This document shows positions 37,387 to 63,942 of a DNA stretch of 64,000 bases, piece after piece. The position numbers were made by a program, and so were the translations under genes. The notes below the pieces were generated by a model. The model was given only the letters and a program-made list of their open reading frames with translations, searched no databases and was not told where the DNA came from. Each line of letters begins with the position of its first letter. Within the stretch, counting starts at the first letter, position 1. Origin of the DNA: Patellaria atrata CBS 101060 (Eukaryota); NCBI GenBank assembly GCA_010093705.1, contig MU006117.1, positions 77,707 to 141,706 of the forward strand, read 5' to 3'.

Positions 37387-40062
37387 CTATAGACAAGATA
37401 AAGGATTTTTAGCTCGATTACCGTCAGTCGCTTGGGCCGTTCCCTCTGTGCTAGGTCGTGGAGGGTTTGTTGAATCTGAAGGGCTCGGATCCGTATATTG
37501 TTTGTCTAATTGAGCCACCATATCCTTCGGTGACATACCAATGTATTTTTTTCGGATAACCCCCGGGATGGATGCCAAAAGAATGTCAATGGCTTTTCGT
37601 ACCTCAGGATCGCGTCGTCCAATGGATGGCGTGGCCAATGTCTTCATTTGAGACGGCATCAGCCCCTCTTTTTCTATATATCGCATGATCTGTATTTTCC
37701 ACGACTTGTAAATCTCACGCTCACTGTAAGGTACGACCTCCCCGTTCGTAAACGTGCATCTTAGGCTTCCGTTCTCTTCTACTCTGGTCCAACCACACTG
37801 TACTGCACTTAGTGACGGTTCCGTAACCTGGGTTGGGGGATGGCAAGCCGCGGATATTAGAGCGCTGCAGCTTCCAAGTATCGGTATGTCGTTGTTTCCC
37901 ACTTTTATCCAGCCTATGATCGCTAAGAGAAGGATTAGGGATATACCTGCACATATAATAACGAACATAGGGAGTAGAGAAAAGGCGCATGTGATGTAGA
38001 AGGGCTCGTCATCTTGGTCCACCGCAACTAAGAAATGCTCTGAGAAACCAACCAGTGAAGAAGTATAGAAATGATCATCAACGGAATACCGTAGCGATAA
38101 GGAACCTGGAGAAAATAGGTTCCCCGTTGTTCTTTCTTGGGAACTGTAGAGACCCGTAGCCCCTTCCTGTGCTTTACGAAATCGTGAAGTTCAAGAGTCG
38201 CCAGCATTGCAGTGAAGAGACCGTTGACGGTAAAGTAGATAAACGAAAGCGTTGGCTGAGCGAGATTTGCAATGATGGCGTTGATGAGGAGCCCTGAGAT
38301 CCCAATGTTAGGGACCTTCCATCCGGTAATGAGACCGATTGCTTTTACCTCACCGAATCCCATGTCTGTAAAATTCATCAAAATGAAAATTATACAGAGA
38401 AATACAAGAGGGTTAAGACTTACCTGGAACCAGATCGGTAGTAATACCAGTAGTACTGACCCCATATACTAACCACGTGGTCACGAGAATGATAGCGGTG
38501 AATAGCATGAAAACACAGAATAACCATCTTTTCCGGCTCGCGGCATCACCCAACCGTTGAGCTTTCGCAGATATCGACAATTGAGGTGGTGATCGCCACG
38601 CCCCTTTATCTTCCAATAATGCGTCCCTCGATAGGAAAAGCGTGCACGGTGTGGTGTTTTCATCCCCATATTCTAGAAAAGAACTGATCGCATCTCCTAC
38701 TGTCACAAGAGGAGACCCCTTCACCTTCAAAATTACCATCAACATGAGTACAACCTTGAAGAGGTTCATTACAAGTACAACTACCATGAGATGAAGACTG
38801 AATTGGACCTTGCAATGCTCTGGCTCTCGCGCTGCTAGACAATGGTCGACCTGGCTACCACCTGGTCCCGGCGCCCATTTGGTTGCGTTCTTCTTTATTT
38901 CTGGTAGTTTCGGGCTGCACATTTTACTACATTCACCGTAAGACACTCCGAAGTCCCGTTCTCCCTCTTGACAGATCCAGAACCATGGTTCTTTCCGACA
39001 TCTTACATAGGGTAGACCAGTGGCGAGAGTTATACCGATTTGAACGATATCGCCGGTTTCAAGCAAGGAATCCATCTCATCCTTTAGAACGAGAATAAGG
39101 GCACTCGAGCGGGACTCAAAATCGTGAGCGTAAGCTTGAATACAATCCGTGTTCTCTAGACGGATCAGAGAGCCGTTAACAGCTCTATCATGTAAGTTTT
39201 CTAAGATATCGTGGCCCTTAGAGGAGTAGTCTTCAGAGCTGTTAGTCTTTGCTTCCATGACTGATATTTATTATAAAAATGATGAAATGGGAACACACGA
39301 AAGCGAGAATTAAGAATATCATGTTGCGTTTGGTTCAGTCTATCCAGACTATCCACGTCCAGGAACCCTTTGGTGACGTAGATCAAATCATAGTCGCGAA
39401 CAGCAATTGTTGAGAATACTGCCGAGTTGTAACTTCAATGCATATATTAGTACATGATATGGGTTATGTTGAACTATGGCTTACAAGAGGTGCAATGGTA
39501 GGGAACTTATGGCTAAGCTGAACCACAGTAAAACTCGTGCCCAACCGATGGCAGAAATATTTCTCACACTGGGTACGCCTATATCGAGCCACCGTCCCTT
39601 CACATGTGCTTTATCGACGTCCAGTCTAGTTGGAGCTGACAAGCATTGCATACTGTAGTTGCTGGCTCCAAGTAGAAGGGAACTAAGGACATTTATGACA
39701 AGATGGATTCCGCTGTTAATATGGCTTGCTTTCGAACACTCGCCGTTGAAGAGGATGGCTCGGCCTTCGTAGCTGATTTGATGTCGAGCAAGGACCCAGA
39801 TCATTGCAGAGAAATTGATAGCAAAGCACAATGTTGTCGTAATTGCTCCAGATATGACACCAACCCTCCAACCGGCCAAGTTATGTCGTATTAGCCATTT
39901 GTCTAACTTGCAAGCTGGAAGAATTAAAATTCGCTTTAACCTATCGTATGTGCGAGTGAAAGCACTGGGCGAAGGTTTGTCATGATGCTGGTCTTTGGTG
40001 TCCTTCGGTTGACCTTGCGTTTTGCTCGCAGCGGTCGCTGTTGGTTCGAGGTGGGCAATCAT
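37387..40062 (-). pseudogene. DUF6536-type multi-pass membrane protein gene with at least one frameshift (pseudogene or assembly error)
   Basis: HLVINVLSSLLLGASNYSMQCLSAPTRLDVDKAHVKGRWLDIGVPSVRN...SSLPLHL|YNSAVF; PLVTVGDAISSFL; HRKGLRVS...QRGTYFLQVPYRYGIP. HWLVSQSI(FLV) needs one extra T at ~38033. Confidence 0.8.
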
Positions 40063-41753
40063 TGTATTATCAATGCGGCTGATATAATTTTTGACGTGTC
40101 TTGTGGAAGCAATTCGTAAGATCTCAACCCTTGATATAAGGTATCATAGAAACAGTATGTGTTTATATCACTCCTCTAGAACTACCTTGCAGTATGTTCA
40201 TAGCGGAGGTTATGTATGCGGAGTCACGTTGGCGGCAACGCTGGAAAAGAGACAGAATGGAACAAATGTGAACTTTGCGCGAACAATCAAGAATAGGAAC
40301 CATCGATAGTAATACCATAATGAAGAGTCTGGACTTAACTACTTAGATCAGATCGGTTTTTCTGTCTCAATGATATCATCGCCAGAATTTCATGGGTATA
40401 TATATATCATCGTACAAAGTTCAAGTCGGTTATCTCCAGTCGTGTAACCGTTGGATTCCGCCCTATTGTGAGGTGATGAAGTATGCCTCATGTTTAATTG
40501 GATGAAAGGTAATATAATCAGTTGGCCCAAATACTTGTTATAGAGACCCATGAACCTCAACATATTGCATAGTGTGTTATGCTGCAAGTATTGTAGCAAT
40601 CCCCATGCAAACTAGAAGATTTGGACTAAGTCCATTGATTGAAGCAAATTAAATGAAACTGTTGGAAATATGCGTAAGGACATCGAAGCTTGCGTTTGAA
40701 GATGAATATTTCTTGACTATAAACCGTAACACAAATTATACGTTATATGACTTTACCTTGGAAACGAATTCTCTTTATAAGCTCACGTGGACGCGTAAAT
40801 GTACAGCCAAAGACACTATGAAGAATGAAGAGAAACGACGTACCTATCCAATTCCTCAATCTGATAACTTTTACCAATACTTTTAGAACCACATTTCATG
40901 TATATTCAGTACATCAAGAAGTTATTCAGTCCTAACGCCAACATCTCTTCAATGCCCAACCGAAGTTGGATCTACGGACTTCTGAGGTAGAAAATCTAAA
41001 GCGAAACGTCTCCCTTGAAGAAAATCGTGAGATAAAATAAGAAGCAAAACTACAAGCCGCTTGATGACTTCTAGAACCCCCAGATCAGTGGCATTTTATT
41101 GCTGCTTTTTGGTTGCTACTTTGACCTGATGTTGATGAAAGGGCACCGGGAGTTACTCAATTCGGATACCTGTCTAGGTTAGTACCGGAGGATTTCGCGG
41201 GATTTTTTTTGAAGCGCAAGTGTCTTCGCTATGGGCTTGTTCTGTTTGATTCTAACATGGACTCTTTTGAGATATGATATCCACTCCGCTTGCAAAGATT
41301 TCCTATAGCGCCCACACGCCCAAGATTGACAGGGAGGCAACGTAATGCACCGAACCATACTATCTAGCAGTTTTTCAATTGACTTAATAGTACTTTTTGC
41401 GAGCTGATGACTGCAAACCTAAGCGAGAACCTTACCCAAAAGATATGGTACCTATCTTGGACTGGGGGGTTACCAGAGAATAAGTTCGAGGATTCCTGGT
41501 CAGGGTATTAAATTTTGGATATACATATTGTGTTTTGGGAGATATCGAGCTCCAAAATAATAGCCGTGGAATTAGACCTCAGGCCAAATTCTACCAAATC
41601 CGACTGGCTGTATTATTGTCAACGTATGTAAATATGGACCATGGATGGAGAAGATTGTATGCCCAAACTCACAATTGTCCACTTCATATTTTAACTGCCA
41701 GGACGATCTTCCCTCTCCAGAGTGTTCCCTTTCTCGAAGGAGTGATTCTCACA

Positions 41754-49556: not shown

Positions 49557-50338
49557 ATGGGTATGATTCGAAGTACAGTGGACCGACTAGATAAGCCCAG
49601 CTCATATACTGCTAATAAGGTACGTTATCTCTTGGTTACTCATACTTAATAGTATCTAACACTGAGTCTCTACAGAAACGTAGGCAGAAGTTCAATCGCG
49701 AGAGAGCCGGTGGTGAAGAGGAGAAATCTCGAGAGGAATCGCCCATTGAAGATAAATTAAAAGACGCTACCACGCTCTATGTCGGGAATCTGTATGCTCA
49801 CCTCCCTAATGCACCCGGAGTTCGCCCTTTCCTAACCATCCACTGACGGTTGTTAGTTCGTTCTACACAACGGAGGAACAGATTCATGAGCTGTTTGCGA
49901 AGTGCGGTGAGATCAAACGGCTAGTCATGGGTCTTGACCGCTTTCAAAAGACACCTTGTGGATTCTGTTTTGTCGAATATTACACCCATCAAGACGCGCT
50001 GGATTGTATGAAGTACATTGGGGGCACGAAGTTGGACGAAAGAGTCATCAGAACTGACTTAGATGAGGGTTTTGTGGAGGGAAGGCAATATGGGTATGTG
50101 AAATCTCTCATTTTCACATTGCAGGAATCATGGGATCTTACCTGTTGGTTGTACTACGAGGCACGATTACCTTGGAAGGGCTACATGTTTGTTACCTTAG
50201 GGTGGAAGTCTGTGCTAATGGATCTATAGACGTGGCAAGTCTGGCGGTCAAGTCCGTGATGAGTACCGCGATGAATTTGACCCCGGACGTGGAGGTTATG
50301 GGAGAGCAGTAGAGGATGATTATAGCGAGCGCAGGTAG
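49557..50338 (+). CDS. CBC2: Nuclear cap-binding complex small subunit (CBP20); 4 exons
   Basis: [49 protein letters not shown]...[40 protein letters not shown]. Confidence 0.96.
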
Positions 50339-51040
50339 GGTGGTAAAGTGACGTTATCCCATTTCTGACTTTAGGACGCTTTCATGCGAAGAGTATCAAG
50401 CACGGCGTTAGGCGGCAATCATGTTACTACTGTCCCTTCTAGGATATCCAATATCTAAATCAGCAATACGCTTAATACGGTAGCAGAGCACCAATTGGTA
50501 CCAGAAGATACCGGAAAGTATATTGTAATGCGATCACGGAAAGAGCAGAAGCGAGGCCGATGTACTAAAAATGCAAAGAGTGACCCGAAATCGTGGACCG
50601 TACTTTGCATTCCGTTCTTCCCGTCTATTTTAAGTAAACATGGCATTTGACAATAGAAGGGACGACAAGGATTCCCTAAGTTATAGGTCCCGTCTGCACG
50701 TAGAAAAACTTCACCCTCCATCTCATACCCTAGAACGTCATCTCTCCTCTTGTCTATATTGCTTGCATAGCCGCTAAGCGCGATCTGCAGCTTTGCCGCA
50801 GAGTTTAAATTTTTCAAGTCATTGTTTGTCAAGCCTTTAAGGAACCTCGTATTTTTCAACGCTATCAACAATTGGCAGTGTTGTCAAGTTGTACAGGGTG
50901 CTACGATTTATCATTATTTGCAAGCTGTAGGCCTATCATTCTACCTCGGTCAAGGTTCTCAATTAGCGGTCAAGCTCCCTTTAATAGAGCCAGTCTTCCT
51001 GCAAAATTCTCAATTGATTCCAATACAATCCATCCTCAAG

Positions 51041-52012
51041 ATGAAGCTACTCGTACTCGCCTCGTTACTCTGTTCCGCTACCGCTCAATACTGGAAAGGG
51101 ATGAACGTCGGGGCCAACAATCCAGACGGCTCTTGTAAATCCCAAGCAGACTGGTATTCCGTCTTCACCACTCTCCAAGGCCTTCCCGGTGGTTACAACA
51201 GCGTCCGACTCTATGCCACATCAGATTGCGATACTCTCGCGAACGCTGTTCCAGCGGCCATTTCGACGGGTATGAAGATCCTCGTTGGTGTTTGGACACA
51301 GGATAGAGCACACTTTGATCGCGAAAAGGGAGCATTGGAATGGGCATTGGGGAGGTATGGAAGCGATTGGATCCTAGCTGTCAGTGTGGGAAGTGAGGAT
51401 CTATACCGAAAGGAAACCTCTGCTGCCAGAATTGCTGAGCAGATCTACGATGTTAGGGGAATGATCAATTACCTAGGACATCCTAAGCAGGTCGGCCATG
51501 TTGATACGTAAGTCTTTCATATATGAATGTTCACCTCTAGCAGTACAAGATGCTGATTCTTTTCTCAGATGGACTGCTTGGGTTGATCCGGCAAACAGAG
51601 ATGTCATCACAGCCTGTGATTTCGTAGGGATGAATGGCTTTCCATACTGGCAAGGTGCTACCATACCACAAAGTTCAGATGTGTTCTGGAAGAGCTATGA
51701 CGATACCAAAAGAGCAGTCGACTCGGTAAAACCGGGCATTTGGATTTGGATGACGGAAACCGGATGGCCGGTGACGGGTGACAGTTTCGGTGCAAGCGTG
51801 CCGAGTAGGTCGAATGCTCAGCAGTTCTACAAGATAGTCGCTTGCGAAGCGTAAGTAATCCGCAGATCTTTAACACTACTACCGGCTCACGGATACTGTG
51901 CAGATTTAAAAGGGGTCATGTATTCTGGTATGCGTATCAAGACTACACTTCGAATCCGTCCTTCGGTGTCGTGGACGCCAACCGAAATCCTATTTACGAC
52001 CTCAGTTGCTGA
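51041..52012 (+). CDS. Secreted glycoside hydrolase family 17 beta-1,3-glucanase/transglucosylase; two introns (~51508-51568, ~51851-51903)
   Basis: Signal peptide MKLLVLASLLCSATA; VRLYATSDC, VSVGSEDLYR (acid/base Glu), HVDT|W, NGFPYWQ, MTETGWP (nucleophile Glu). No GPI tail; ends YDLSC*. Confidence 0.93.
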
Positions 52013-54155: not shown

Positions 54156-54793
54156 TAGATAAATCACACCATACGGCAGTTGGCTTTGCTTGATGAGATA
54201 CGAGTAATGGTTATGGCTTTATCGGGATGGGATTGTCTGATTGATTTAGGCTTTCTTTATCGGTTTTTCATCTTCCAACTTAGGCTGGGTACTAAGGAGT
54301 CTTGATCATGGATTAAGAGAGGACAGGGAGATTTAGGTCGCATATAACGGCGCCTATTGTACAGTAGTAAATCTTTAAAGATCTTAATGAATTGTCCATA
54401 TCTCTACCGACTTACCTATACCTCGTTTGCTTCCTACCTGATGGTTTTGTTGTGAGGTGCGATAAGTCCTTCTATTGTTGTATAGTTTATAGCTATATTA
54501 AGATGGAATGTAAACATGTTCCCATCCGAAGAATGTTCTTTCGCCGCCATGTTGATTTTTCAGCAGAAATATAGTACGATGTACTTGGCGCAGGATGACG
54601 TTCGGTCTAAACTTCAAGCCGATAGAAAAAAGTTACTCCGCAACTTGCATATTTGAGGGAACATTTCTAAGCACCTACTGAGTCACAAGTCCAAGGCAAT
54701 TGTGGTGTCTTCCCCCTTTCCATCTTCTCTTTCTCCTTTATATAACTTTTTCCAATATCGAATCTCCCCAATCCAATCACACATCCCGCGATT

Positions 54794-56305
54794 ATGTCTG
54801 CCCAAACACCCCACCAACAGCCCCCGCGCGACTTCCCCGAGCGCGATGATGACGACGAAATGCTCGACCCTGCCGACGCGGAAGAAGAAATCGTCGACGA
54901 TGACGACGCAGCGATGGATTCCGGCGACGAAGACAACGACGAAGCGAACCTCGACCCCTCCGAAACCCTCGAAGAAATCGCCCTCCAAAACGACAGCACC
55001 GCCCACTTCGACGCCCACACCGACAGCATCTTCTGCATCGCACAACACCCCATCCACTCCTCGATAGTCGCGACCGGAGGCGGCGACGACACCGGCTATG
55101 TCTTCGACGGCACGCCTCCCCGGCGACCCCTATTACCCTCAAGCTACGAGAGTAATCCGCAGCCCGTGGAGAGGGAATCGATCAAACCGCTCTTCAAGCT
55201 AGAGGGACACACGGAGAGCCTAAATGCAATAACATACACACTTCCCAAAGGCGCATACTTAGCAACCGGAACACTAGACGGAGCTCTGAGGGTATGGGCA
55301 ACCGACCAGCCAGGCCTCCGCTACAAATTCCTCGCCGAAGCCAAAGAAGTCGACGAGATAAACTGGCTCGCACCCTGTCCGCACCCTTCCCACCCTAATG
55401 TCCTCGCCCTCGGCGCCGCAGATGGCTCCGTGTGGGTCTACAGCCTCAACATCGCCGACAAGGCTTCCCCCCTGACGATCCTCCAAACATACTACAAGCA
55501 CACCGCGCCCTGCACCGCCGGGGCGTGGACACCAGACGGCACCCTTCTGGCCACCGTAGCCGAAGACTCCAGCCTCGAAGTCTGGGACGTCTTCAGCGAC
55601 GCCGCGGCCGCCGGCATCGCGTCCCCGGACTCCCAGAGCGTAGTCAGCCTCAACGGAACAGACGAACGCTTCCGCGTCGACGGCGGCCTCTACAGCGTTG
55701 CCGTCGCACCCACCGGGGCCTTCCTCGCCACAGGCGGCGCAGAGGGCCAGCTCCGCATCGTCGGCCTGCCACGTCTCTCCGCCGGAACAACGACAGGGAC
55801 GGGCCAAACAGGCCAGATCCTCGCTTCCCTCCAGACCCAAAGCGACGGCATCGAAACCCTCTCGTTCTCCTCGCCGCCACTGAATCTCCTCGCTGCTGGA
55901 TCTGTCGATGGGTCTATAGCACTCTTTGACCATGCGCATCGTTTTGCTGTGCGGAGACATATCAGGGACGCGCATGATGGTGAGGCGGTTATTAAAGTCG
56001 AGTTTGTCCGTCCGGGCTCTGCGGCCACGACTTCCTCCTCCTCTTCGGCGCCGCAGGGAGGAGTACAACAGCTGGTACACGGAAATCAGACGTACATCCT
56101 CACCTCGGCGGGCAACGATGGCGTGATCAGGAGGTGGGATGCCAGAGGCGGCACCGCGGCGGCCGGAAACGGGCTCCTGGCCGAGTGGAGGGGGCATAGA
56201 GGCGGTGGGGAGGGCGGTGGGGTGTTGGGGTTTGTGCAAGGGGCAGGAGCGGTGGTGACGGCGGGGGACGATGGCGTTGCTTTGGTTTTTGAGGGGGGCC
56301 GGTAG
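54794..56305 (+). CDS. SQT1: WD40 ribosome assembly factor Sqt1 (uL16/Rpl10 chaperone), 503 aa
   Basis: Acidic N-terminus, LQNDSTAHFDAHTDSIFCI, ATGGGDD, GHTESLNA, multiple WD repeats, C-terminal VVTAGDDGVALVF. Confidence 0.9.
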   Translation: MSAQTPHQQPPRDFPERDDDDEMLDPADAEEEIVDDDDAAMDSGDEDNDEANLDPSETLEEIALQNDSTAHFDAHTDSIFCIAQHPIHSSIVATGGGDDTGYVFDGTPPRRPLLPSSYESNPQPVERESIKPLFKLEGHTESLNAITYTLPKGAYLATGTLDGALRVWATDQPGLRYKFLAEAKEVDEINWLAPCPHPSHPNVLALGAADGSVWVYSLNIADKASPLTILQTYYKHTAPCTAGAWTPDGTLLATVAEDSSLEVWDVFSDAAAAGIASPDSQSVVSLNGTDERFRVDGGLYSVAVAPTGAFLATGGAEGQLRIVGLPRLSAGTTTGTGQTGQILASLQTQSDGIETLSFSSPPLNLLAAGSVDGSIALFDHAHRFAVRRHIRDAHDGEAVIKVEFVRPGSAATTSSSSSAPQGGVQQLVHGNQTYILTSAGNDGVIRRWDARGGTAAAGNGLLAEWRGHRGGGEGGGVLGFVQGAGAVVTAGDDGVALVFEGGR

Positions 56306-57492: not shown

Positions 57493-59560
57493 TCACCAAG
57501 TTTCCTAGGATTTCATCAGCGGCGATCACTGGAAACGGCGTTAAGGATTCACTTACGGCAATATACTGTCCGCCCTCCCTCTTCTGCTCCCAAAATTCCT
57601 CTGCTTCTTTCCTATTAATACCACCCTTCTCCATGACAACATCAATCAGCGCTTCATGTACTCCCTCACCCATACCTTTCGAGCTCCCGCAAACGAAGAT
57701 ACGCCCGTCAAGTGCGGAAATAACGAACCACACTATGTCTGCACGCAGTCTGACTTCATCTTGGACGTACTTTGCCTCTTTAGCATCGTCTGACTTTGTC
57801 GGGTCCTTCTTCTTGCGACTCTGAACGACCTTCTTAATATCTTGCTCGTGATCGCCAAGCTCGCCAGAGTAGATCTCGTCAAGATTGCTATCCCTGACGC
57901 CCTGCACCAACCAGATCTTGTTCGCGCAGTTCGCCTTCTTCACCCTGTTCAAGATGAACCCTCTGAAGGGCGCCATGCCGACACCTGCTCCTATCAGCAT
58001 CATCGGGCCATCTCCGCCGAACTGACTACTGAGAGGATTCGCCATAAGTCCTCTGAACATAGGCACACGGAGATCTAGCACCTCGGAAGCATTAATGCCC
58101 TCCTGCTCCGCTTCGATGAACTTGCGGGCTGTTCGTTCGAGAAACCCGCTCCCTACGCCAGTGCGTACAGATATAGGACCGCGCCAATCGGGTGTTTCAT
58201 GTATCGTAACAGCCATTTCGATCAAACGACGGCCGGGTTGCAGCCCTCCTCGAGAAGAAGAGATATGCGGGTCGTTGGAAAGAGAATAGAAGCGCGGCAT
58301 CAGCTGTGTGAGAACACTTAGAAGAGCAGGAAGAGGAGGCTTAGATGAGGGGAACGCGTGTAATAGTTGGTTGATCGTGATGTGAGGGCCGGTCCTCAAG
58401 TCACAGAAACTGGCTTGACCCTGAGCAGAGGTGAGGTGGAGAAGGATCTTCTTCTCGTTGGCCGCATCGGCATATTCGGCGAGGACACGTAGGAGAGGTT
58501 TGGTAGGCGGATTGCTAGAAATGTCCACTGTCCAGGTGAGGAGCTCGCGGCGGGTAGTCACCAGTTCACGTGGCTTCTCTTCTCCCCAGATTGTGGGCCA
58601 GCGACCGCCTTGAGTTTTGAGAGTAACAGGTTTATCGCGGACGAAAGATGGTATTCCTAGCTGGTCAAAAATGTCATCGACGGCTTCCGTAGGGTTGGGT
58701 GGGCAGATGCCAATGGCACCCCCAACTTTGAAGTCAAGGCCACCTTCCTCGGGATAGTCTGTTACATCGAGATCGAAGTGAAAAGTCCTCTTCTCCGCAC
58801 CAGGTTTGGTCAATTCACGAGCGTGGAAGACCGGTGCGGAGAAGACATCGTATGGAGGATGAGGCTGTACGTATTTGGGAGGATGTTTATGTACGGCAGT
58901 GACGTGCTTGGGTGCTGCACTAGAGATTGGGTCGAAAGACATAGTAGTCTCGGGGAGTGGTGTAATATTAGTAAGTGGTGTATCCAAACTGAGCGGGCCA
59001 AGCTTGAGATCAAGCCTCCGGAAAGCCTCGTTGTCGGGAAGGATGACGGGCAGAATCGGGGAAGACTTCGTGTCCGGTTCTAATGTCTCCACGAAGCAAC
59101 ACCCGCCGCCACAGCAGTACTTCTCAATGAGCTCGGTGCCAGTCTGCCCGTCTCCTAGAAGCCTTCGCATACCCTCTGCATCTTGTGATATGAGCGTAGT
59201 AGAGGCCCGTCGAAGCTTCGGTCTACCAATATCTACTGATGCCGCAGGTAGACCTTTCAGCCTGTCGACCAATTCATCTACTTGTTCGTCCACCTCAGTG
59301 TTCGGGGTAGATGGGGACTCCATGTCACTGGAATCGTAGTATCCCAACGACTCACCCGACGACCGAGGCGACTCTGTGTCTGTAGAATCATTGTTCAAGG
59401 AGATAGGTGCGAGGTGGTATTCAGGGAGGGTCTGTGGAGGCTCTCGAGGAATTGGATCGTCAGGATGGGAAGTTGCACTGGTAGGTATTGTGTGTTGGGA
59501 CCGATGTAGGTTTTGCATCATCGGTACAACCGAGGTGGCGAGATCGCCCGGTCGAGCCAT
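57493..59560 (-). CDS. FAD/NADPH-binding reductase (CPR / methionine synthase reductase-like FNR module) lacking the FMN flavodoxin domain, with N-terminal CCGGGCC; final intron 57556-57505
   Basis: PRFYSLSN (RxYS), GVGSGFL, MLIGAGVGMAPFRGF, KYVQD, IFVCGS. Splicing GTAAGT...CCTAG gives the C-terminus YIA|ETW*, with the terminal aromatic residue typical of diflavin reductases; the ORF track's longer tail is intron read-through. Confidence 0.88.
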
Positions 59561-59702
59561 TGGACGGCGAGCTGTGAAGAGCGAACAAATGTTAGATAGG
59601 TGAAATACATTAAGAGAGAGATGAGAATATTATAATAAGGAGCGATGAGACGAGGTGTCGTGAACCTTTCCCCCACCTTTACGGCGTACCTGTTCTCGTA
59701 GA

Positions 59703-59717
59703 GATTATCTGATAATC
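59703..59717. promoter_or_regulatory. Palindromic double GATA element GATTATC-T-GATAATC matching the SreA/Sre1 consensus ATCWGATAA on both strands
   Basis: ATCTGATAA at 59707-59715 (+) and ATCAGATAA on the minus strand; ~145 bp upstream of the reductase ATG; an extra GATAA at 59731. Confidence 0.6.
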
Positions 59718-61674
59718 GCGATTGTATGACGATAATCGCTTGCGGCGCACGGTAAAGTTAAAACTCCAACAACCCCTTCGAGAAATCCTGTTGAGAATGA
59801 AGGACGACACGTTGATCAAATAGGAGGAGAGTGGAGGGGAAGTGTCAGGACATGTGGTTGACTAAATATCAAATTGGTAAGGGATTTCCAACGTGTTAGG
59901 TTATGAGAGAATAATGAAGGGGTGGAGGTGAGGAAAGATCAGGAATTATCTTTTTTTTGGCTTCGAATTTAGGATTGCCGGGTATTGTGCAAGGGGAGAA
60001 GGGGGAGAAGGGCAGTTAATTCTACGGGCTTTTTGTTACGGTACCACGGTCTTCAGATTGTAAGGTAGAGATTGTGGTGCTTCGGTAGGTTTGCTAACAC
60101 TTTGTGGGTTAATTTTCCACTTTTTCCACCTTGTTGTGCCCCAAATACATCCGAACGTCACTTGATTGTGGTATAGTACCTAAAGTGCTTGATTGTCCGC
60201 CCGCTTTCACTTCGCGATCCCAACCCCTAAGCATCCCTATTATTCTCTAACTAACCCGATGATCAATCAATCTGCTGTTGCAGCTGATTATCACGCGTCT
60301 TTTCACCACTCAATGCTACAGTATTGCTGACATTGATGCTCATCACCGTTGTCATCTCGCTCATCGATTCTTAATCGATTGTAGATTTGTTTCAAATCAT
60401 CCTTGAATCTTCTGGTGTTTCTGACTGTACCTCGCCCTCCCCTTGACGGTAGATGGCACAGATGGGTGCATGCTTACCGTACCGAACACGCCTGCCCGCA
60501 TCGAAACCTGGTGAATTCTCCCTCGCACAAGGCCCTCGGTCTATCATTTTCATCAGACCTCAAATAGTCCAATGCTTTCAACAGCTACCTTACTTTAAGC
60601 TATGCTCATCACTGATCACTGACGATATTCTCTGCACAACTGCACATCTTTCTGCTCCGAGAACCGCTGTAACCCCTTGTTTTCCCGCCCCGTTGTGCCC
60701 GCACCGTCAGATCCCAGACACCCTCCGACAATGCCATCTATCCAATTATTGATGCAATTCCACCGGCCTATGGTTCCTACTGGATGACCTTCCTCAGGGT
60801 TGCCATGAGCCTCAGCCTGAGTCTTTGGGCTGCCGGAGCTGTTCGTACCGGCTTTGCGAAAAGCTCACCACATCCGGAACCCACCTTGATGCCTCCCCGC
60901 GCCAGAGGACTTCCACTTCCATCCAGCTGCTTGCCAGCTCGTGCTTTTCTTTTTTTTTTTCTTTACCTTGATTCGACCATCATTCACGGCGCGGTCTTTC
61001 ATTCCTTTTTGGAACCATGTCGCTACCGTATCGCTTTCGTTTTGATTATCCATTTCGAGGTAAATTCATCACGATATCTTGACTACATGCTGTACACACA
61101 TCTGACGACTGACAACACGGCCTTTGCAGCTCTCGTGCTGGCTGCAGCCACGGTGATTGAACCATGTCACTCTGGCTGTTTTGGCTCTTCAGCCTGCTTC
61201 GTACTCTGCATCTGTTGGCTTGCCCAGCCTCTGCATTCCCGTAGATTCCTTCACCGTACCTTGATATTTGAGAGAGCCTAGAGAGGTTATCTGGACGTCC
61301 CACAAGTCATCTCCGGCGAAACTCGAGATCCTTGCGAGATAAGATAATTTGCTCATCTCAATCAGCGCCAAAGCTTCTTGGTACTAACACCTGATGGGAG
61401 ACTATTGGATTCGATCCGTACTTTCCAGCTTTCGGAGAACGACATCTCATAAGAAAATTTTCATTTTGCAAATAATTATTCACAGTGCACCGGATAGATA
61501 GGAGAAGATTCTTTCACCAATGCCCGAAGGAGCACCCGCGAATCGATCCTCAACGCAAATGAATGGAACCACGTACTATTCGTTGATTTTGATCTCTAGT
61601 ATCCTCAATATCTCCTGCAACACAACATCACTGGTACCCATATATATATCAACAAAGTTATATCTTTCCGGTGC

Positions 61675-62451
61675 TTATTTTTCTGGCATGTACACACTAA
61701 CCTCCAGACCGCCTTTGAAAGGTAAAGTGGAACTGCGGAAATTACCCTTTGGGTCACGAAGCACTGAGAAAAGCTCTTCGTAACGAGATGCTGATTGAAT
61801 CGTGTTGTCTGTAACAACTAGTGCTCCTGGCTTCAGCCTTGGAAGTACTGCTTTCAGCGCAGGCAAAGCAACTGGCGGCCAGACTAGCCGGGTCAGTACA
61901 CGGTCTTTGCTCTGATATTGGAGACATATGTGACTTGGCTTACTATCCAATAACAAGAAATCAACCGTTTCAATATCATTGGCAAGAGTTTCCTCTAAAT
62001 CGCCTTCTCTCAAATTGATTCTTTCAGCTACTGCATTACCACATATCTCCCAGTTCTCTCTTGCCTTCTTCGCTTTTTCGGGTTCCTTTTCAGTGGCAAT
62101 AACCCACCCTTTTTCGCCTGTTAACTTTTCTACTTCTGCAACTGCTAGTGCAAGGTAGATCGTGCTGACGCCATAACTGGTTCCCGCTTCGACGATATAT
62201 CGAGAACGGCTGGAGATGACGAGTTGGTAAACGAACTCCGCTTTATCTCGATCTAACGCGATAAACTTGTCTCTCATAAGATCATCTAGAGCTAAAGAAC
62301 TAGTAACGGGATCCGTCTTGTATAACTCTTTAACGGCTACTAATTTAGCAGGTGGTATACTCTCCTCTTGCTCCAATGACGATTGGTGTAGCCGATCAAG
62401 TAGATCAGCTATATGCTGTGAAGGCCTAACGGGTGATGATGTAGCTGACAT
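61675..62451 (-). CDS. SAM-dependent O-methyltransferase (YrrM/MdmC-like); in-frame intron 61943-61884
   Basis: IVEAGTSYGVSTIYLA, VIATEKEPEKA, LREGDLEETL, DFLLLD|IW, LKPGALVVTDN. Confidence 0.9.
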   Translation of the reverse strand: MSATSSPVRPSQHIADLLDRLHQSSLEQEESIPPAKLVAVKELYKTDPVTSSLALDDLMRDKFIALDRDKAEFVYQLVISSRSRYIVEAGTSYGVSTIYLALAVAEVEKLTGEKGWVIATEKEPEKAKKARENWEICGNAVAERINLREGDLEETLANDIETVDFLLLDSKPSHICLQYQSKDRVLTRLVWPPVALPALKAVLPRLKPGALVVTDNTIQSASRYEELFSVLRDPKGNFRSSTLPFKGGLEVSVYMPEK

Positions 62452-63942
62452 TGCAGCTACGGTGAATATAAGTGCTGACTAGATGGCTAGTGGGCACAAA
62501 ATATTGATCTTTGGTAATAACGGGAAACGTTACATGCAAAAAGACTTCATGATCGACCTGGATCAGAGAAAGTCAGATATTGTACGAGGTAGCCGATATC
62601 GCGATCTTCTGTTCCAGGCCATCACGCCGTGTTCCGCGCGGTTTGGAATGACTGTTGGAATCGTCGCTCTGCAGAAGCGTCTAACTATTTTGTTTCAGCA
62701 GTTGGGATCAAATTAATCATCTATTTCGCAGAGACAAAATGACCGGATTTGTTGCGATCTGACGCAATCTCGGCGCAAATCTTTTGTGTGAGGTGACTAT
62801 CCTTCGATATTCCCAACGTCATGGGCGGGAAAGGGTCCTTGGGTCCAGGCTTGAGGTTCTTTTGGACCGTTCGTGTTTGACGGGTTTGATCCTGTCGATC
62901 TTTCGGTTATGCTTGATGTCCTTAGGAAAGGATGGGCGAGCCGCGCTAAGGCCACGACATCATCTTTGAGCTATAAAACTTCATGGACGAAAAGGTCGGT
63001 CTAAATCGCGGTATACTACAATACTACCTTGTGCTACCTTTGTACTTGGACACAGCTTGCTATAGCCATTCTTGTACTACAAGCTGGTAAAGACTCACGC
63101 ATAGACGTCAACATTGCATCTGAGATGCTACACTCTCATGCCCACGAGTTACATGGTAATCCTCGTCGACGTTCAATAGGATGTTATTGGAGCGAGTTCT
63201 TGAAGAGACATTCGTAACCGCTCTATCTCAATAGTGCTTACTTCCCCTGAATACTCGCAACCTAACCAGTACGTCACAAGCGATTGGGATCTGTGATGAT
63301 TTAGAAGCGATATCTATGGAACTAAGCCAGCTGAATAACGACCGTAGATCAATACAGAAGCGGCGAGAGAGAATCGGTAGGTAACGCGGGCTTAAATCGT
63401 CCTACACAAAAAAAAATTGGACTCATTAACGTAGAAGGTAACAACATCTCTTTTCTCGACAGCAAAGCATTTGTTTCTCACAGTCAAGAATCCCGTAATT
63501 CCGTTCAATATAGTCGTGCTAAGAACCAGAAAACATGAAGTCTTTTTGTCAATATTGCTTTTTCATTTCAGTCATGATTTAATAAGTTGGATTTTAGTCT
63601 GTTGATATTCTGTTAAGAGCCTGGGAGTCCTCATGACGATACTGGATAGGGGACTGACTCCGCACCCCGTAATCATGTGCAACTGTACTCTCGTCAACCG
63701 TCACTATCCAATCCCCATTAAGCAATTATTCAAACTCCTTTATGACTTCGAGTCATAAACAACAGTTCACCTCTCATGACAGCATAGACCACAAGCCTCA
63801 GTTCCTCTCTGATCCTCAACCCTTTTCCAAAAAAACTTCTCTCCCACTCTTCCAAATCTCACAACAAACACCATTTCACATCTCAAAACTCTAGCCTCCA
63901 TACACCAGCCCCCCTTCTCCACCATCCCCATCCCCCCAAATC

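What the first reader, a model, noticed from the sequence alone, without database searches (positions are those of the whole stretch)
57493..59735. Flavodoxin-less FAD/NADPH reductase with a CCGGGCC cysteine cluster under a palindromic SreA-type site: candidate iron-regulated Fe-S / ferri-siderophore reductase
Seen: a complete FNR-type module ending ETW*. Where CPR, MTRR and Tah18 carry an FMN flavodoxin domain, this protein has a low-complexity region with IEKYCCGGGCCF. A perfect palindrome GATTATCTGATAATC, matching ATCWGATAA on both strands, lies ~145 bp upstream. Established: ATCWGATAA is the consensus of the iron-responsive GATA repressor SreA/Sre1, and vicinal cysteines ligate the [2Fe-2S] cluster of the bacterial siderophore reductase FhuF. 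Inference: the four cysteines may bind a metal or Fe-S cluster that replaces FMN as electron exit, giving an iron-starvation-induced cytosolic reductase that could release iron from siderophores. The function is a hypothesis.
Basis: partly seen in the sequence, partly recalled or inferred. Interest (0 to 1): 0.7.

Follow-up and report, generated by a model that had tools for sequence, protein, structure and literature searches.

The report
Iron-regulated flavin reductase with cysteine cluster
A fungal gene encodes an NADPH/FAD reductase that has swapped its usual second flavin domain for a short four-cysteine motif and carries a conserved iron-repressor site in its promoter, making it a candidate for an unidentified iron-starvation electron donor.

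Summary
The gene is complement(join(57493..57504, 57557..59560)), 671 aa, identical to a hypothetical protein of Patellaria atrata. It has FAD_binding_1 and NAD_binding_1 but no flavodoxin domain. It carries CCGGGCC at residues 149-155 and two overlapping ATCWGATAA sites 143-157 nt upstream of the ATG.

The family spans Ascomycota, and its nearest relatives are methionine synthase reductases. Homology starts at residue 176, so residues 1-175 replace the FMN domain. A CC-x3-C(C) cluster is kept in all six Pezizomycotina classes sampled. ATCWGATAA lies within 800 nt upstream in 32 of 43 non-redundant orthologous loci; shuffles give about 0.4.

Two points are already published for Afu4g10100, which I infer to be the A. 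fumigatus orthologue. It is one of 49 SreA-repressed genes (2008, supplement). It co-purifies with the [2Fe-2S] glutaredoxin GrxD, most strongly without iron (2019).

So iron/SreA control is well supported and not new. Fe-S binding by the cysteines is plausible but unshown, and siderophore reduction is untested. One S. pombe paralogue is not iron-induced, and most Lecanoromycete-like promoters lack the site. No paper found characterises the family.

The parts
57557..59560 (-). Exon 1 of the reductase gene (residues 1-668, ATG at 59560)
   Evidence: Open frame and translation; 100% identical to NCBI protein P0002 of Patellaria atrata
57505..57556 (-). 52-nt intron (GT..AG) before the last three codons
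   Evidence: Sequence read. Splicing gives the C-terminus ETW, found in P0002 and 16 of the other 17 aligned homologues (P0005 ends differently). No RNA evidence was available.
57493..57504 (-). Exon 2: Glu-Thr-Trp-stop. The terminal Trp aligns with the C-terminal Trp of MTRR and CPR.
   Evidence: alignments to 2qtl, 7sux, 5gxu and 3ojw end ...D(I/V)W against ETW
59096..59116 (-). CCGGGCC, residues 149-155
   Evidence: Direct reading. Invariant in 18 of 18 Dothideomycete homologues. At least 90% conserved in 28 Pezizomycotina sequences. In 43 non-redundant loci: 34 exact, 6 CCG[DE]GCC, 1 CCGAAANCC, 2 CCGGGC[FQ].
59198..59212 (-). RRAST, residues 117-121. It fits the basophilic-kinase (PKA-type) consensus R-R-x-S/T; that consensus is recalled, not tested.
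   Evidence: Invariant; at least 90% conserved
59036..59560 (-). N-terminal region, residues 1-175, which stands where MTRR has its FMN domain. No Pfam family and no solved relative.
   Evidence: hhalign of the family against MTRR-like proteins aligns only residues 176-671. PDB matches start at residue 229-240 or later. No Pfam hit. 58% of residues are S/T/P/D/E/G/Q/N.
58256..58849 (-). FAD_binding_1 domain (residues 238-435), including PRFYSLS
   Evidence: Pfam E 2.4e-46. PRFYS aligns with PRPYS / ARYYS of MTRR / CPR.
57656..57997 (-). NAD_binding_1 domain (residues 522-635), including GAGVGMAPFRGF, SR...KYVQD and VCGSSKGM
   Evidence: Pfam E 3.5e-10; aligned to the corresponding MTRR / CPR stretches
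59703..59717 (.). Inverted repeat GATTATC-T-GATAATC: two overlapping ATCWGATAA (SreA-type) sites, 143-157 nt upstream of the ATG
   Evidence: The motif is named as the SreA-regulon motif in PMC2610380. It is conserved in 32 of 43 orthologous promoters.
59730..59735 (+). Additional HGATAR-type site (CGATAA), about 170-175 nt upstream of the ATG

Best explanation
This is the Patellaria atrata member of an Ascomycota-wide family of soluble NADPH-dependent FAD reductases. The family descends from methionine synthase reductase and has lost the FMN (flavodoxin) domain.

In place of that domain it carries a mostly disordered N-terminal region of about 175 residues with two strongly conserved islands. 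One is an RRAST site; the other is a CC-x3-CC cysteine cluster.

The gene is most likely repressed by the iron-sensing GATA factor SreA through the double ATCWGATAA site at -143 to -157, and so induced by iron starvation. This is inferred from motif conservation and from published data on Afu4g10100, the inferred A. fumigatus orthologue.

The working mechanism is inference. NADPH reduces FAD. With no FMN, electrons leave either directly from FAD or through a metal centre, most likely a [2Fe-2S] cluster. That cluster would be held by the cysteine cluster and delivered by, or shared with, the monothiol glutaredoxin GrxD.

The physiological acceptor is unknown. Ferric chelates, including ferri-siderophores, are the leading candidate.
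For: Shown here:
- FAD_binding_1 plus NAD_binding_1, no flavodoxin.
- Cofactor motifs (RxYS, GxGxAPF, SR..YVQ, VCG, terminal W) align with MTRR and CPR structures.
- The best solved relative is the human MTRR FAD/NADPH domain, E 5.3e-33.
- The top non-family hits are MTRRs of Olpidium, Phycomyces and lamprey, plus one JGI record so named.
- Profile-profile alignment covers residues 176-671 only, probability 100, E 1e-85.
- The family is one clade, SH-aLRT 100, next to an MTRR-named sequence.
- The cysteine cluster is conserved.
- ATCWGATAA occurs in 32 of 43 non-redundant orthologous promoters: 1.26 sites per kb, against 0.064 per kb in the rest of the same loci. Shuffles give a mean of 0.4 and a maximum of 3 loci.
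- The most enriched 7-mers found without a prior motif are pieces of that motif.
- Upstream neighbours differ between clades and are mostly in tandem orientation, so the site goes with this gene.

Published:
- ATCWGATAA is the SreA-regulon motif (PMC2610380, passages).
- Afu4g10100, 'FAD binding domain protein', fell by log2 -2.75 at 30 min after iron addition in wild type, against -0.79 in the sreA mutant. It is in the table of 49 putative SreA targets (supplement).
- Afu4g10100 co-purified with GrxD-Venus at log2 7.62 (-Fe), 4.11 (0.03 mM Fe) and 2.49 (5 mM Fe). It was not detected with GrxD lacking its Trx domain (PMC6762210 Table 1).
- FhuF shows that adjacent cysteines can bind the two irons of one [2Fe-2S] cluster (bioRxiv 10.1101/2023.07.04.547673, abstract and passages).
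Against: - I never saw the Afu4g10100 sequence. Orthology rests on the paper's own S. pombe orthologue (SPAC1783.01), which is in this family, and on the shared product name.
- S. pombe SPBC12C2.03c was not induced by iron starvation (1.1-fold) but was mildly induced by copper excess (1.7-fold).
- 11 of 43 promoters lack the exact motif within 800 nt. By class these are 7 of 11 Lecanoromycete-like, 3 of 7 Eurotiomycete-like and 1 of 24 Dothideomycete-like. Two of them have clusters further upstream.
- In the window alone the motif count is not above chance.
- No expression data exist for this organism.
- Nothing shows metal binding. Co-purification with GrxD could be indirect or post-lysis, as that paper itself argues for Bol1 and Bol3.
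- Some members have only three cysteines (L018, L078, Golovinomyces). SPAC1783.01 has no cluster.
- No structure model could be made, so it is unknown whether the cysteine loop can reach the FAD.
Confidence: 0.6

Rival explanations
1. One reading: a cytosolic ferri-siderophore reductase. NADPH passes electrons to FAD, then to a [2Fe-2S] on the cysteines, then to ferricrocin, coprogen or fusarinine-type complexes, releasing Fe(II) during starvation. This is a special case of the best explanation, not a contradiction of it.
For: - SreA-type control alongside siderophore genes.
- Bacterial siderophore reductases are either FNR-fold flavoproteins (SIPs) or [2Fe-2S] proteins with adjacent cysteines (FhuF) (abstract).
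- Reviews state that release can occur by reduction or hydrolysis (passages), and one lists intracellular iron release among unexplored aspects (passages).
- In PMC6762210 Table 1 no orthologue was determined in S. cerevisiae or C. neoformans. That these two make no siderophores while S. pombe and Aspergillus do is recalled, not tested.
Against: - No assay exists.
- The gene is not in a siderophore cluster here: its neighbours are a methyltransferase and a WD40 protein.
- S. pombe SPBC12C2.03c is not iron-induced, although S. pombe induces its ferrichrome genes sib1 and sib2.
- There is no homology to FhuF or SIP families.
Confidence: 0.2
2. The cysteine cluster is not an Fe-S site. It could be a lipidation (S-palmitoylation) site or a Zn/Cu(I) site that tethers or regulates the reductase. 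FAD would then pass electrons directly to a separate partner, such as a flavodoxin-like protein or a membrane acceptor.
For: - The cluster sits in a disordered, Pro/Ser-rich region.
- It varies between three and four cysteines and in spacing outside Pezizomycotina.
- A metallothionein (CmtA) also co-purified with GrxD, so GrxD pull-downs are not specific for Fe-S proteins.
- From recalled knowledge: fungal sulfite reductase splits its FAD and FMN modules between two subunits, a precedent for an FMN partner acting in trans.
Against: - The Aspergillus protein was recovered with soluble GrxD from extracts, alongside known Fe-S binders such as HapX, SreA, Dre2 and Nbp35.
- Near-invariance of all seven residues, including the GGG, across six classes suggests a precise geometry rather than a lipid anchor.
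Confidence: 0.15
3. The protein works in iron sensing rather than iron supply. An NADPH-driven reductase would act on GrxD-bound or regulator-bound [2Fe-2S] clusters and help switch SreA and HapX to the starvation state.
For: - GrxD association is strongest without iron and depends on the Trx domain, as SreA's association does.
- The gene clusters with hapX in expression cluster 3.
Against: This is purely inferential. The stronger recovery at -Fe can be explained by higher abundance of an SreA-repressed protein.
Confidence: 0.07
4. The GATA repeat is a chance or nitrogen-regulator (AreA-type) site, and the gene is a housekeeping MTRR remnant unrelated to iron.
For: - The in-window motif count is not significant.
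- HGATAR is shared by all GATA factors (passages).
- S. pombe annotates its homologues as methionine synthase reductase.
Against: - 32 of 43 orthologous promoters carry the extended motif, against about 0.4 by chance.
- SreA dependence is published for Afu4g10100.
- The FMN domain that MTRR needs is absent.
Confidence: 0.03

Closest known systems
Aspergillus fumigatus Afu4g10100 ('FAD binding domain protein'), a member of the published SreA regulon and a GrxD co-purifying protein
   Same: Same family by inference: its stated S. pombe orthologue SPAC1783.01 is in this family, and Aspergillus members carry the same product name and CCGGGCC. Its upstream region holds several ATCWGATAA sites.
   Different: The sequence was not seen here. 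Its exact ATCWGATAA sites lie further upstream, at about -886, -1422 and -1702 as far as the PDF table layout lets rows be assigned, against -143 to -157 here. Its function is also uncharacterised.
Methionine synthase reductase (MTRR; human FAD/NADPH domain, PDB 2qtl)
   Same: Closest family by sequence, profile and tree. It shares the linker, the FAD domain, the NADPH domain and the C-terminal Trp.
   Different: The window protein has no FMN domain, and residues 1-175 are unrelated to MTRR. From recalled knowledge, Ascomycota use cobalamin-independent methionine synthase, so the MTRR job is not expected.
Schizosaccharomyces pombe SPBC12C2.03c and SPAC1783.01 ('putative methionine synthase reductase')
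   Same: Family members, 44-50% identical over the reductase module, also without an FMN domain.
   Different: The cysteine cluster is CINCRC in SPBC12C2.03c and absent in SPAC1783.01. SPBC12C2.03c was not iron-induced.
Bacterial ferric-siderophore reductases: FhuF ([2Fe-2S], C-C-x10-C-x2-C) and SIP/ViuB/YqjH-type flavoproteins
   Same: Possible functional analogy: an FNR-fold flavin module, as in SIPs, together with adjacent cysteines that could bind a [2Fe-2S], as in FhuF.
   Different: No sequence relationship and a different cysteine spacing. No FhuF or SIP Pfam domain was found.
Tah18-Dre2 (NDOR1-anamorsin) electron transfer pair of cytosolic Fe-S assembly
   Same: A diflavin-reductase-type module feeding a cysteine-bound Fe-S centre. 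Dre2 also co-purifies with GrxD.
   Different: Tah18 keeps its FMN domain and Dre2 is a separate protein with different cysteine motifs (recalled).

Membership tests
Diflavin reductases (CPR / MTRR / Tah18 / sulfite reductase flavoprotein) | N-terminal FMN-binding flavodoxin domain | tested here: not met
   No Pfam flavodoxin hit at E <= 0.1. The profile alignment to MTRR-like proteins starts at residue 176, after their FMN domain.
Diflavin reductases (CPR / MTRR / Tah18 / sulfite reductase flavoprotein) | FAD_binding_1 (with connecting domain) plus NAD_binding_1 and the cofactor motifs | tested here: met
   Pfam E 2.4e-46 and 3.5e-10. RxYS, GxGxAPF, SR..YVQ, VCG and the terminal Trp align with MTRR / CPR chains.
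Methionine synthase reductase (functional) | FMN domain that reduces cob(II)alamin of a cobalamin-dependent methionine synthase | tested here: not met
   The FMN domain is absent. Presence of MetH in this organism could not be tested, because no genome is held.
MTRR-derived clade (evolutionary) | Nearest relatives by sequence and tree are MTRRs | tested here: met
   Of 9 top non-family hits looked up, 4 carry MTRR names; P0176's cluster has one member named NADPH-ferrihemoprotein reductase, and 4 carry no functional name. The best PDB hit is 2qtl. The family clade is sister to MTRR-named P0167, SH-aLRT 95 (unrooted, quick search).
SreA/Sre1/Fep1 iron regulon | ATCWGATAA-type site(s) in the promoter | tested here: met
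   Two overlapping sites at 59705-59715. 32 of 43 non-redundant orthologous promoters have at least one within 800 nt.
SreA/Sre1/Fep1 iron regulon | Iron repression that depends on the GATA factor | not testable with these tools
   Published for Afu4g10100. No RNA data exist for this organism. S. pombe SPBC12C2.03c was not iron-responsive.
FhuF-type ferric-siderophore reductase | FhuF fold with C-C-x10-C-x2-C binding a [2Fe-2S] | tested here: not met
   No FhuF Pfam domain. The motif here is CC-x3-CC.
SIP (ViuB/YqjH) siderophore-interacting flavoproteins | FAD_binding_9 plus SIP domains | tested here: not met
   Pfam reports only FAD_binding_1 and NAD_binding_1.
Fe-S protein | Cysteine ligands that hold a cluster | not testable with these tools
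   Four conserved cysteines, and published GrxD co-purification of Afu4g10100, the inferred Aspergillus orthologue.

The most novel reading that the evidence does not exclude
After Ascomycota lost cobalamin-dependent methionine synthesis, the orphaned methionine synthase reductase was rebuilt. Its FMN domain was replaced by a minimal CC-GGG-CC loop. In that loop two adjacent cysteine pairs would hold a GrxD-delivered [2Fe-2S] cluster, FhuF-style. The gene was then placed under SreA control. The result would be the missing cytosolic NADPH:ferri-siderophore (ferricrocin) reductase of filamentous fungi, a eukaryotic convergent hybrid of the bacterial SIP and FhuF solutions.
Probability: 0.15. Interest if true: 0.85.

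Novelty: new variant of a known kind. Interest (0 to 1): 0.58.

Why it matters
Reviews state that iron can be released from imported or stored fungal siderophores by reduction or by hydrolysis (PMC12153323, passages). One review lists intracellular iron release among unexplored aspects (PMC8781417, passages).

This family is a concrete, testable candidate for a soluble iron-starvation reductase, for four reasons:
- It is conserved at about 55-75% identity in the Pezizomycotina sequences sampled here.
- Most orthologous promoters carry the iron-repressor site.
- Afu4g10100, the inferred Aspergillus orthologue, is pulled down with the iron-sensing glutaredoxin.
- Its electron exit is unlike any characterised FNR-type enzyme.

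It would also be a clear case of an enzyme reused after its original partner pathway was lost. The family includes members in plant and human pathogens, where iron acquisition matters for infection.

The iron regulation itself is not new. It sits in a 2008 supplementary table.

Tried and rejected
- Whole genome: none is held. I could not look for SreA, HapX, GrxD, MetH or siderophore genes, or count the motif genome-wide.
- RNA evidence: no RNA holder is listed. The two runs found are DNA contigs that cover the stretch without joints (one search gave no answer). The intron and the transcript start therefore rest on the annotation and on conservation only.
- Complex prediction (reductase module + FAD + 2Fe-2S + cysteine segment): not available. 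Whether the loop can reach the flavin is untested.
- ESM Atlas search with residues 95-235: the best feature score was 0.75, below the level of a lead.
- Earlier findings of this scan: nothing related.
- Synteny: no window neighbour recurs in the 80 loci, apart from one weak WD40 match. At most 5 loci share an upstream neighbour. There is no siderophore cluster context.
- Repeat tools: no tandem repeats, and no inverted repeat of 12 nt or more in the promoter. The 7-nt arms fall below that threshold.
- First tree attempt with 90 full-length rows timed out. It was redone with 55 rows and the C-terminal 470 residues.
- Literature: searches for the two S. pombe ids, the A. fumigatus id, 'methionine synthase reductase' with iron terms, 'FAD binding domain protein' with HapX, and GrxD with FAD/NADPH found no study of the family's function.
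- One locus tag (AFUB_067240) was a guess from memory. Its hits were ignored.
- The supplement of the HapX paper (PMC2947994) could not be read. It may say whether Afu4g10100 is HapX-dependent. The supplements of the GrxD paper were not examined.
- The other ATCWGATAA in the window (40859) lies about 715 nt upstream of a DUF6536 membrane-protein ORF and was not pursued.


Full report
**Observation.** The gene lies on the minus strand.
- The reading frame opens at ATG 59560 and is continuous to 57557.
- A 52-nt GT..AG intron (57505-57556) follows, then GAA ACT TGG TGA, so the protein ends ...GGQYIAETW.
- The 668 residues of exon 1 are 100% identical to a 671-aa NCBI protein, hypothetical protein M501DRAFT_1020681 of Patellaria atrata CBS 101060 (P0002). 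The window is therefore from this Dothideomycete.
- Pfam finds FAD_binding_1 (238-435, E 2.4e-46) and NAD_binding_1 (522-635, E 3.5e-10), and nothing else at E <= 0.1.
- IEKYCCGGGCCF is residues 145-156.
- GATTATCTGATAATC is at 59703-59717, 143-157 nt upstream of the ATG. It matches ATCWGATAA on both strands. A further CGATAA sits at 59730-59735.

All elements of the observation are present at the stated coordinates. Two corrections apply. The window holds only 3 ATCWGATAA sites against 1.46 expected, and 17 of 100 shuffles reach 3, so the site is not significant by itself. The N-terminal region also contains sharply conserved islands and is not simply low-complexity.

**What the reductase module is.**
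- Against solved structures the best match is the FAD/NADPH domain of human methionine synthase reductase (2qtl, E 5.3e-33, query 238-671). Cytochrome P450 reductases follow.
- In the printed alignments PRFYS, RTGVGSGFL, GAGVGMAPFRGF, SR...KYVQD, VCGSSKGM and the terminal Trp line up with the corresponding MTRR and CPR stretches. The NADPH-to-FAD half therefore looks intact.
- In the 1.84-billion-protein representative search, family members score 43-64% identity. Scores then drop to 29-38% identity.
- I looked up nine of those next hits. Four carry methionine synthase reductase names (Olpidium, Phycomyces, lamprey and a JGI record). One cluster has a member named NADPH-ferrihemoprotein reductase. 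The other four carry no functional name.
- A profile-profile comparison of the family (41 sequences) with eight MTRR-like proteins gives probability 100 and E 1e-85. It aligns only residues 176-671 with the part of MTRR that follows its FMN domain.
- A quick maximum-likelihood tree (55 rows, C-terminal 470 residues, LG+G4) recovers the family as one clade (SH-aLRT 100) on a long stem. It is sister to an MTRR-named sequence (SH-aLRT 95). Its internal order follows Taphrinomycotina, early Saccharomycotina and Pezizomycotina. The tree is unrooted, and about half of the unnamed hits were left out for run time.

My reading is that this is an Ascomycota-specific descendant of MTRR that has lost the FMN domain. 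The S. pombe annotation 'methionine synthase reductase' reflects that ancestry, not a shown function.

**The N-terminal region.** Residues 1-175 have no Pfam family, no solved relative and no counterpart in MTRR. S, T, P, D, E, G, Q and N make up 58% of these residues.

Two islands are at least 90% conserved across 28 Pezizomycotina sequences: RRAST (117-121) and CCGGGCC (149-155).

CCGGGCC is found as follows:
- It is invariant in 18 of 18 Dothideomycete homologues, which I picked from the 120 listed.
- Among 34 named or representative proteins examined, 20 have the exact motif. These cover Dothideomycetes, Eurotiomycetes (Aspergillus, Penicillium, Histoplasma), Leotiomycetes, Sordariomycetes, Pezizomycetes and Lecanoromycetes, plus P0134, whose cluster includes a Kockiozyma (Lipomycetales) protein.
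- Taphrinomycotina and Tortispora have other clusters instead: CGPGCSC, CCYDCRC, CINCRC and CAACC.
- SPAC1783.01 and one S. japonicus paralogue have none.
- In the 43 non-redundant metagenome loci there are 34 CCGGGCC, 6 CCG[DE]GCC, 1 CCGAAANCC and 2 CCGGGC[FQ].

**The promoter site in orthologues.**
- A scan of JGI metagenome contigs matched 332 stretches, of which 172 encode a relative. The best 80 loci were kept.
- Of these, 55 had at least 500 nt upstream of an N-terminal match. The other 25 were dropped as truncated.
- Merging upstream regions that were at least 85% identical left 43.
- 32 of the 43 carry at least one exact ATCWGATAA within 800 nt upstream. Most sites lie at -150 to -320, and often occur as two sites 13-39 nt apart.
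- That is 43 sites in 34,028 nt (1.26 per kb), against 16 sites in 248,709 nt (0.064 per kb) in the rest of the same loci.
- Two hundred mononucleotide shuffles gave a mean of 0.4 loci and a maximum of 3.
- Three hundred permuted motifs gave a mean of 0.47 loci. The one outlier overlaps the real motif.
- A motif-blind 7-mer count puts ATCWGAT, TCTGATA and CTGATAA at the top.

The site belongs to this gene rather than to a neighbour:
- The window's neighbours do not recur in the loci.
- At most 5 loci share an upstream neighbour, and the shared neighbours are mostly in tandem orientation.
- In the window the upstream neighbour is a tandem methyltransferase gene ending 2.1 kb away.

By nearest named relative, the motif is present in 23 of 24 Dothideomycete-like, 4 of 7 Eurotiomycete-like, 4 of 11 Lecanoromycete-like and 1 of 1 Leotiomycete-like loci. 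Of the 11 loci without it, three have one-mismatch versions. Two have three exact sites each further upstream. All 11 keep CCGGGCC.

**What is already published.**
- Schrettl et al. 2008 (PMC2610380; passages and supplement read) derived ATCWGATAA from the SreA regulon of A. fumigatus.
- Their Table S1 lists Afu4g10100, 'FAD binding domain protein', in expression cluster 3 with hapX, freB, mirC and amcA. After iron addition its log2 ratio was -2.75, -2.13 and -1.66 at 30, 60 and 120 min in wild type. In the sreA mutant it was -0.79, -0.50 and -0.42.
- Their Table S2 includes the gene among the 49 putative SreA targets, with several ATCWGATAA-type hits.
- Misslinger et al. 2019 (PMC6762210; passages read) list Afu4g10100, '(Methionine synthase reductase)', S. 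pombe orthologue SPAC1783.01, among the proteins most enriched with GrxD-Venus. The log2 values were 7.62 without iron, 4.11 at 0.03 mM and 2.49 at 5 mM. It was not detected with GrxD lacking its thioredoxin domain.
- SPAC1783.01 is a member of the present family. Its best Pezizomycotina matches are the roughly 644-aa Aspergillus and Penicillium proteins that carry CCGGGCC, several of them named 'FAD binding domain protein'.

I did not see the Afu4g10100 sequence itself, so the orthology is a strong inference and not a demonstration.

**Evidence against, and limits.**
- In S. pombe, SPBC12C2.03c changed 1.1-fold under iron starvation and 1.7-fold under copper excess (Rustici et al. 2007, PMC1929147, supplement).
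- Iron control is therefore not universal in the family. The Lecanoromycete-like promoters point the same way.
- Co-purification with GrxD does not prove direct or cluster-bridged binding. The same table includes a metallothionein and mitochondrial BolA proteins, which the authors suspect bind after lysis.
- No RNA data, genome, structure model or complex model could be obtained.

**Mechanism.**
- Shown: an intact NADPH/FAD module, no FMN domain, a conserved cysteine cluster and a conserved SreA-type site.
- Published for Afu4g10100, the inferred Aspergillus orthologue: SreA-dependent iron repression and GrxD association.
- Inferred: under iron starvation the gene is derepressed. NADPH reduces FAD. 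One-electron output then passes either directly from the flavin or through a [2Fe-2S] centre held by the two adjacent cysteine pairs.

FhuF gives a precedent for that geometry, since its neighbouring cysteines bind different irons of one cluster (bioRxiv 10.1101/2023.07.04.547673, abstract and passages). GrxD is a plausible donor of, or co-ligand for, such a cluster.

The acceptor is unknown. Ferric chelates, including ferri-siderophores, are the most attractive candidates. Rival readings are a lipidation or Zn/Cu site with an FMN partner in trans, a role in resetting the GrxD/SreA/HapX sensor, or a chance or AreA site. I rank all of these lower.

**Novelty and verdict.** Iron/SreA regulation and GrxD association are already in print for Afu4g10100, in a supplementary table and a proteomics table.

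Four points appear new:
- the family's MTRR ancestry with replacement of the FMN domain;
- the near-invariance of CC-x3-CC across Pezizomycotina;
- the conservation of the SreA-type site across classes;
- the combined functional hypothesis.

My searches found no paper that studies the protein. I file it as a new variant of a known kind, an FNR/diflavin-reductase-type enzyme, of moderate to high interest because it is directly testable.

Noticed in passing
window 59198-59212 (-), residues 117-121: RRAST is invariant in 18 of 18 Dothideomycete homologues and at least 90% conserved in 28 Pezizomycotina sequences. It looks like a basophilic-kinase (PKA-type) phosphorylation site, about 30 residues before the cysteine cluster. 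It may regulate the enzyme.
   Followed up: partly
window 40859-40867 (+): The only other ATCWGATAA in the window. It lies about 715 nt upstream of a minus-strand ORF (39481-40143) with a DUF6536 domain (E 7.8e-52). No iron link is evident.
   Followed up: partly
window 59561-61675: An unusually long stretch (about 2.1 kb) without a recognisable gene lies between the reductase ATG and the 3' end of the tandem methyltransferase gene (61675-62478, Methyltransf_24). The 202-aa ORF at 60673-61281 has no Pfam hit.
   Followed up: partly
L002 (-1345 to -1640) and L029 (-1826 to -2549), relative to the first HSP: Two loci lack a proximal site but have clusters of three exact ATCWGATAA sites far upstream. 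This resembles the distal positions tabulated for Afu4g10100. They could be distal SreA elements or belong to another gene.
   Followed up: no
S. pombe homologue SPBC12C2.03c (P0132): In the Rustici 2007 supplement this paralogue is listed among genes induced by copper excess (1.7-fold), not by iron starvation. The family may answer to metal or oxidative stress differently in fission yeast.
   Followed up: no
window 49810-50229 (+), 50771-51854 (+), 54746-56305 (+): Ordinary neighbours: an RRM protein, a GH17-like glucanase and a WD40 protein. There are no siderophore or iron genes nearby.
   Followed up: partly
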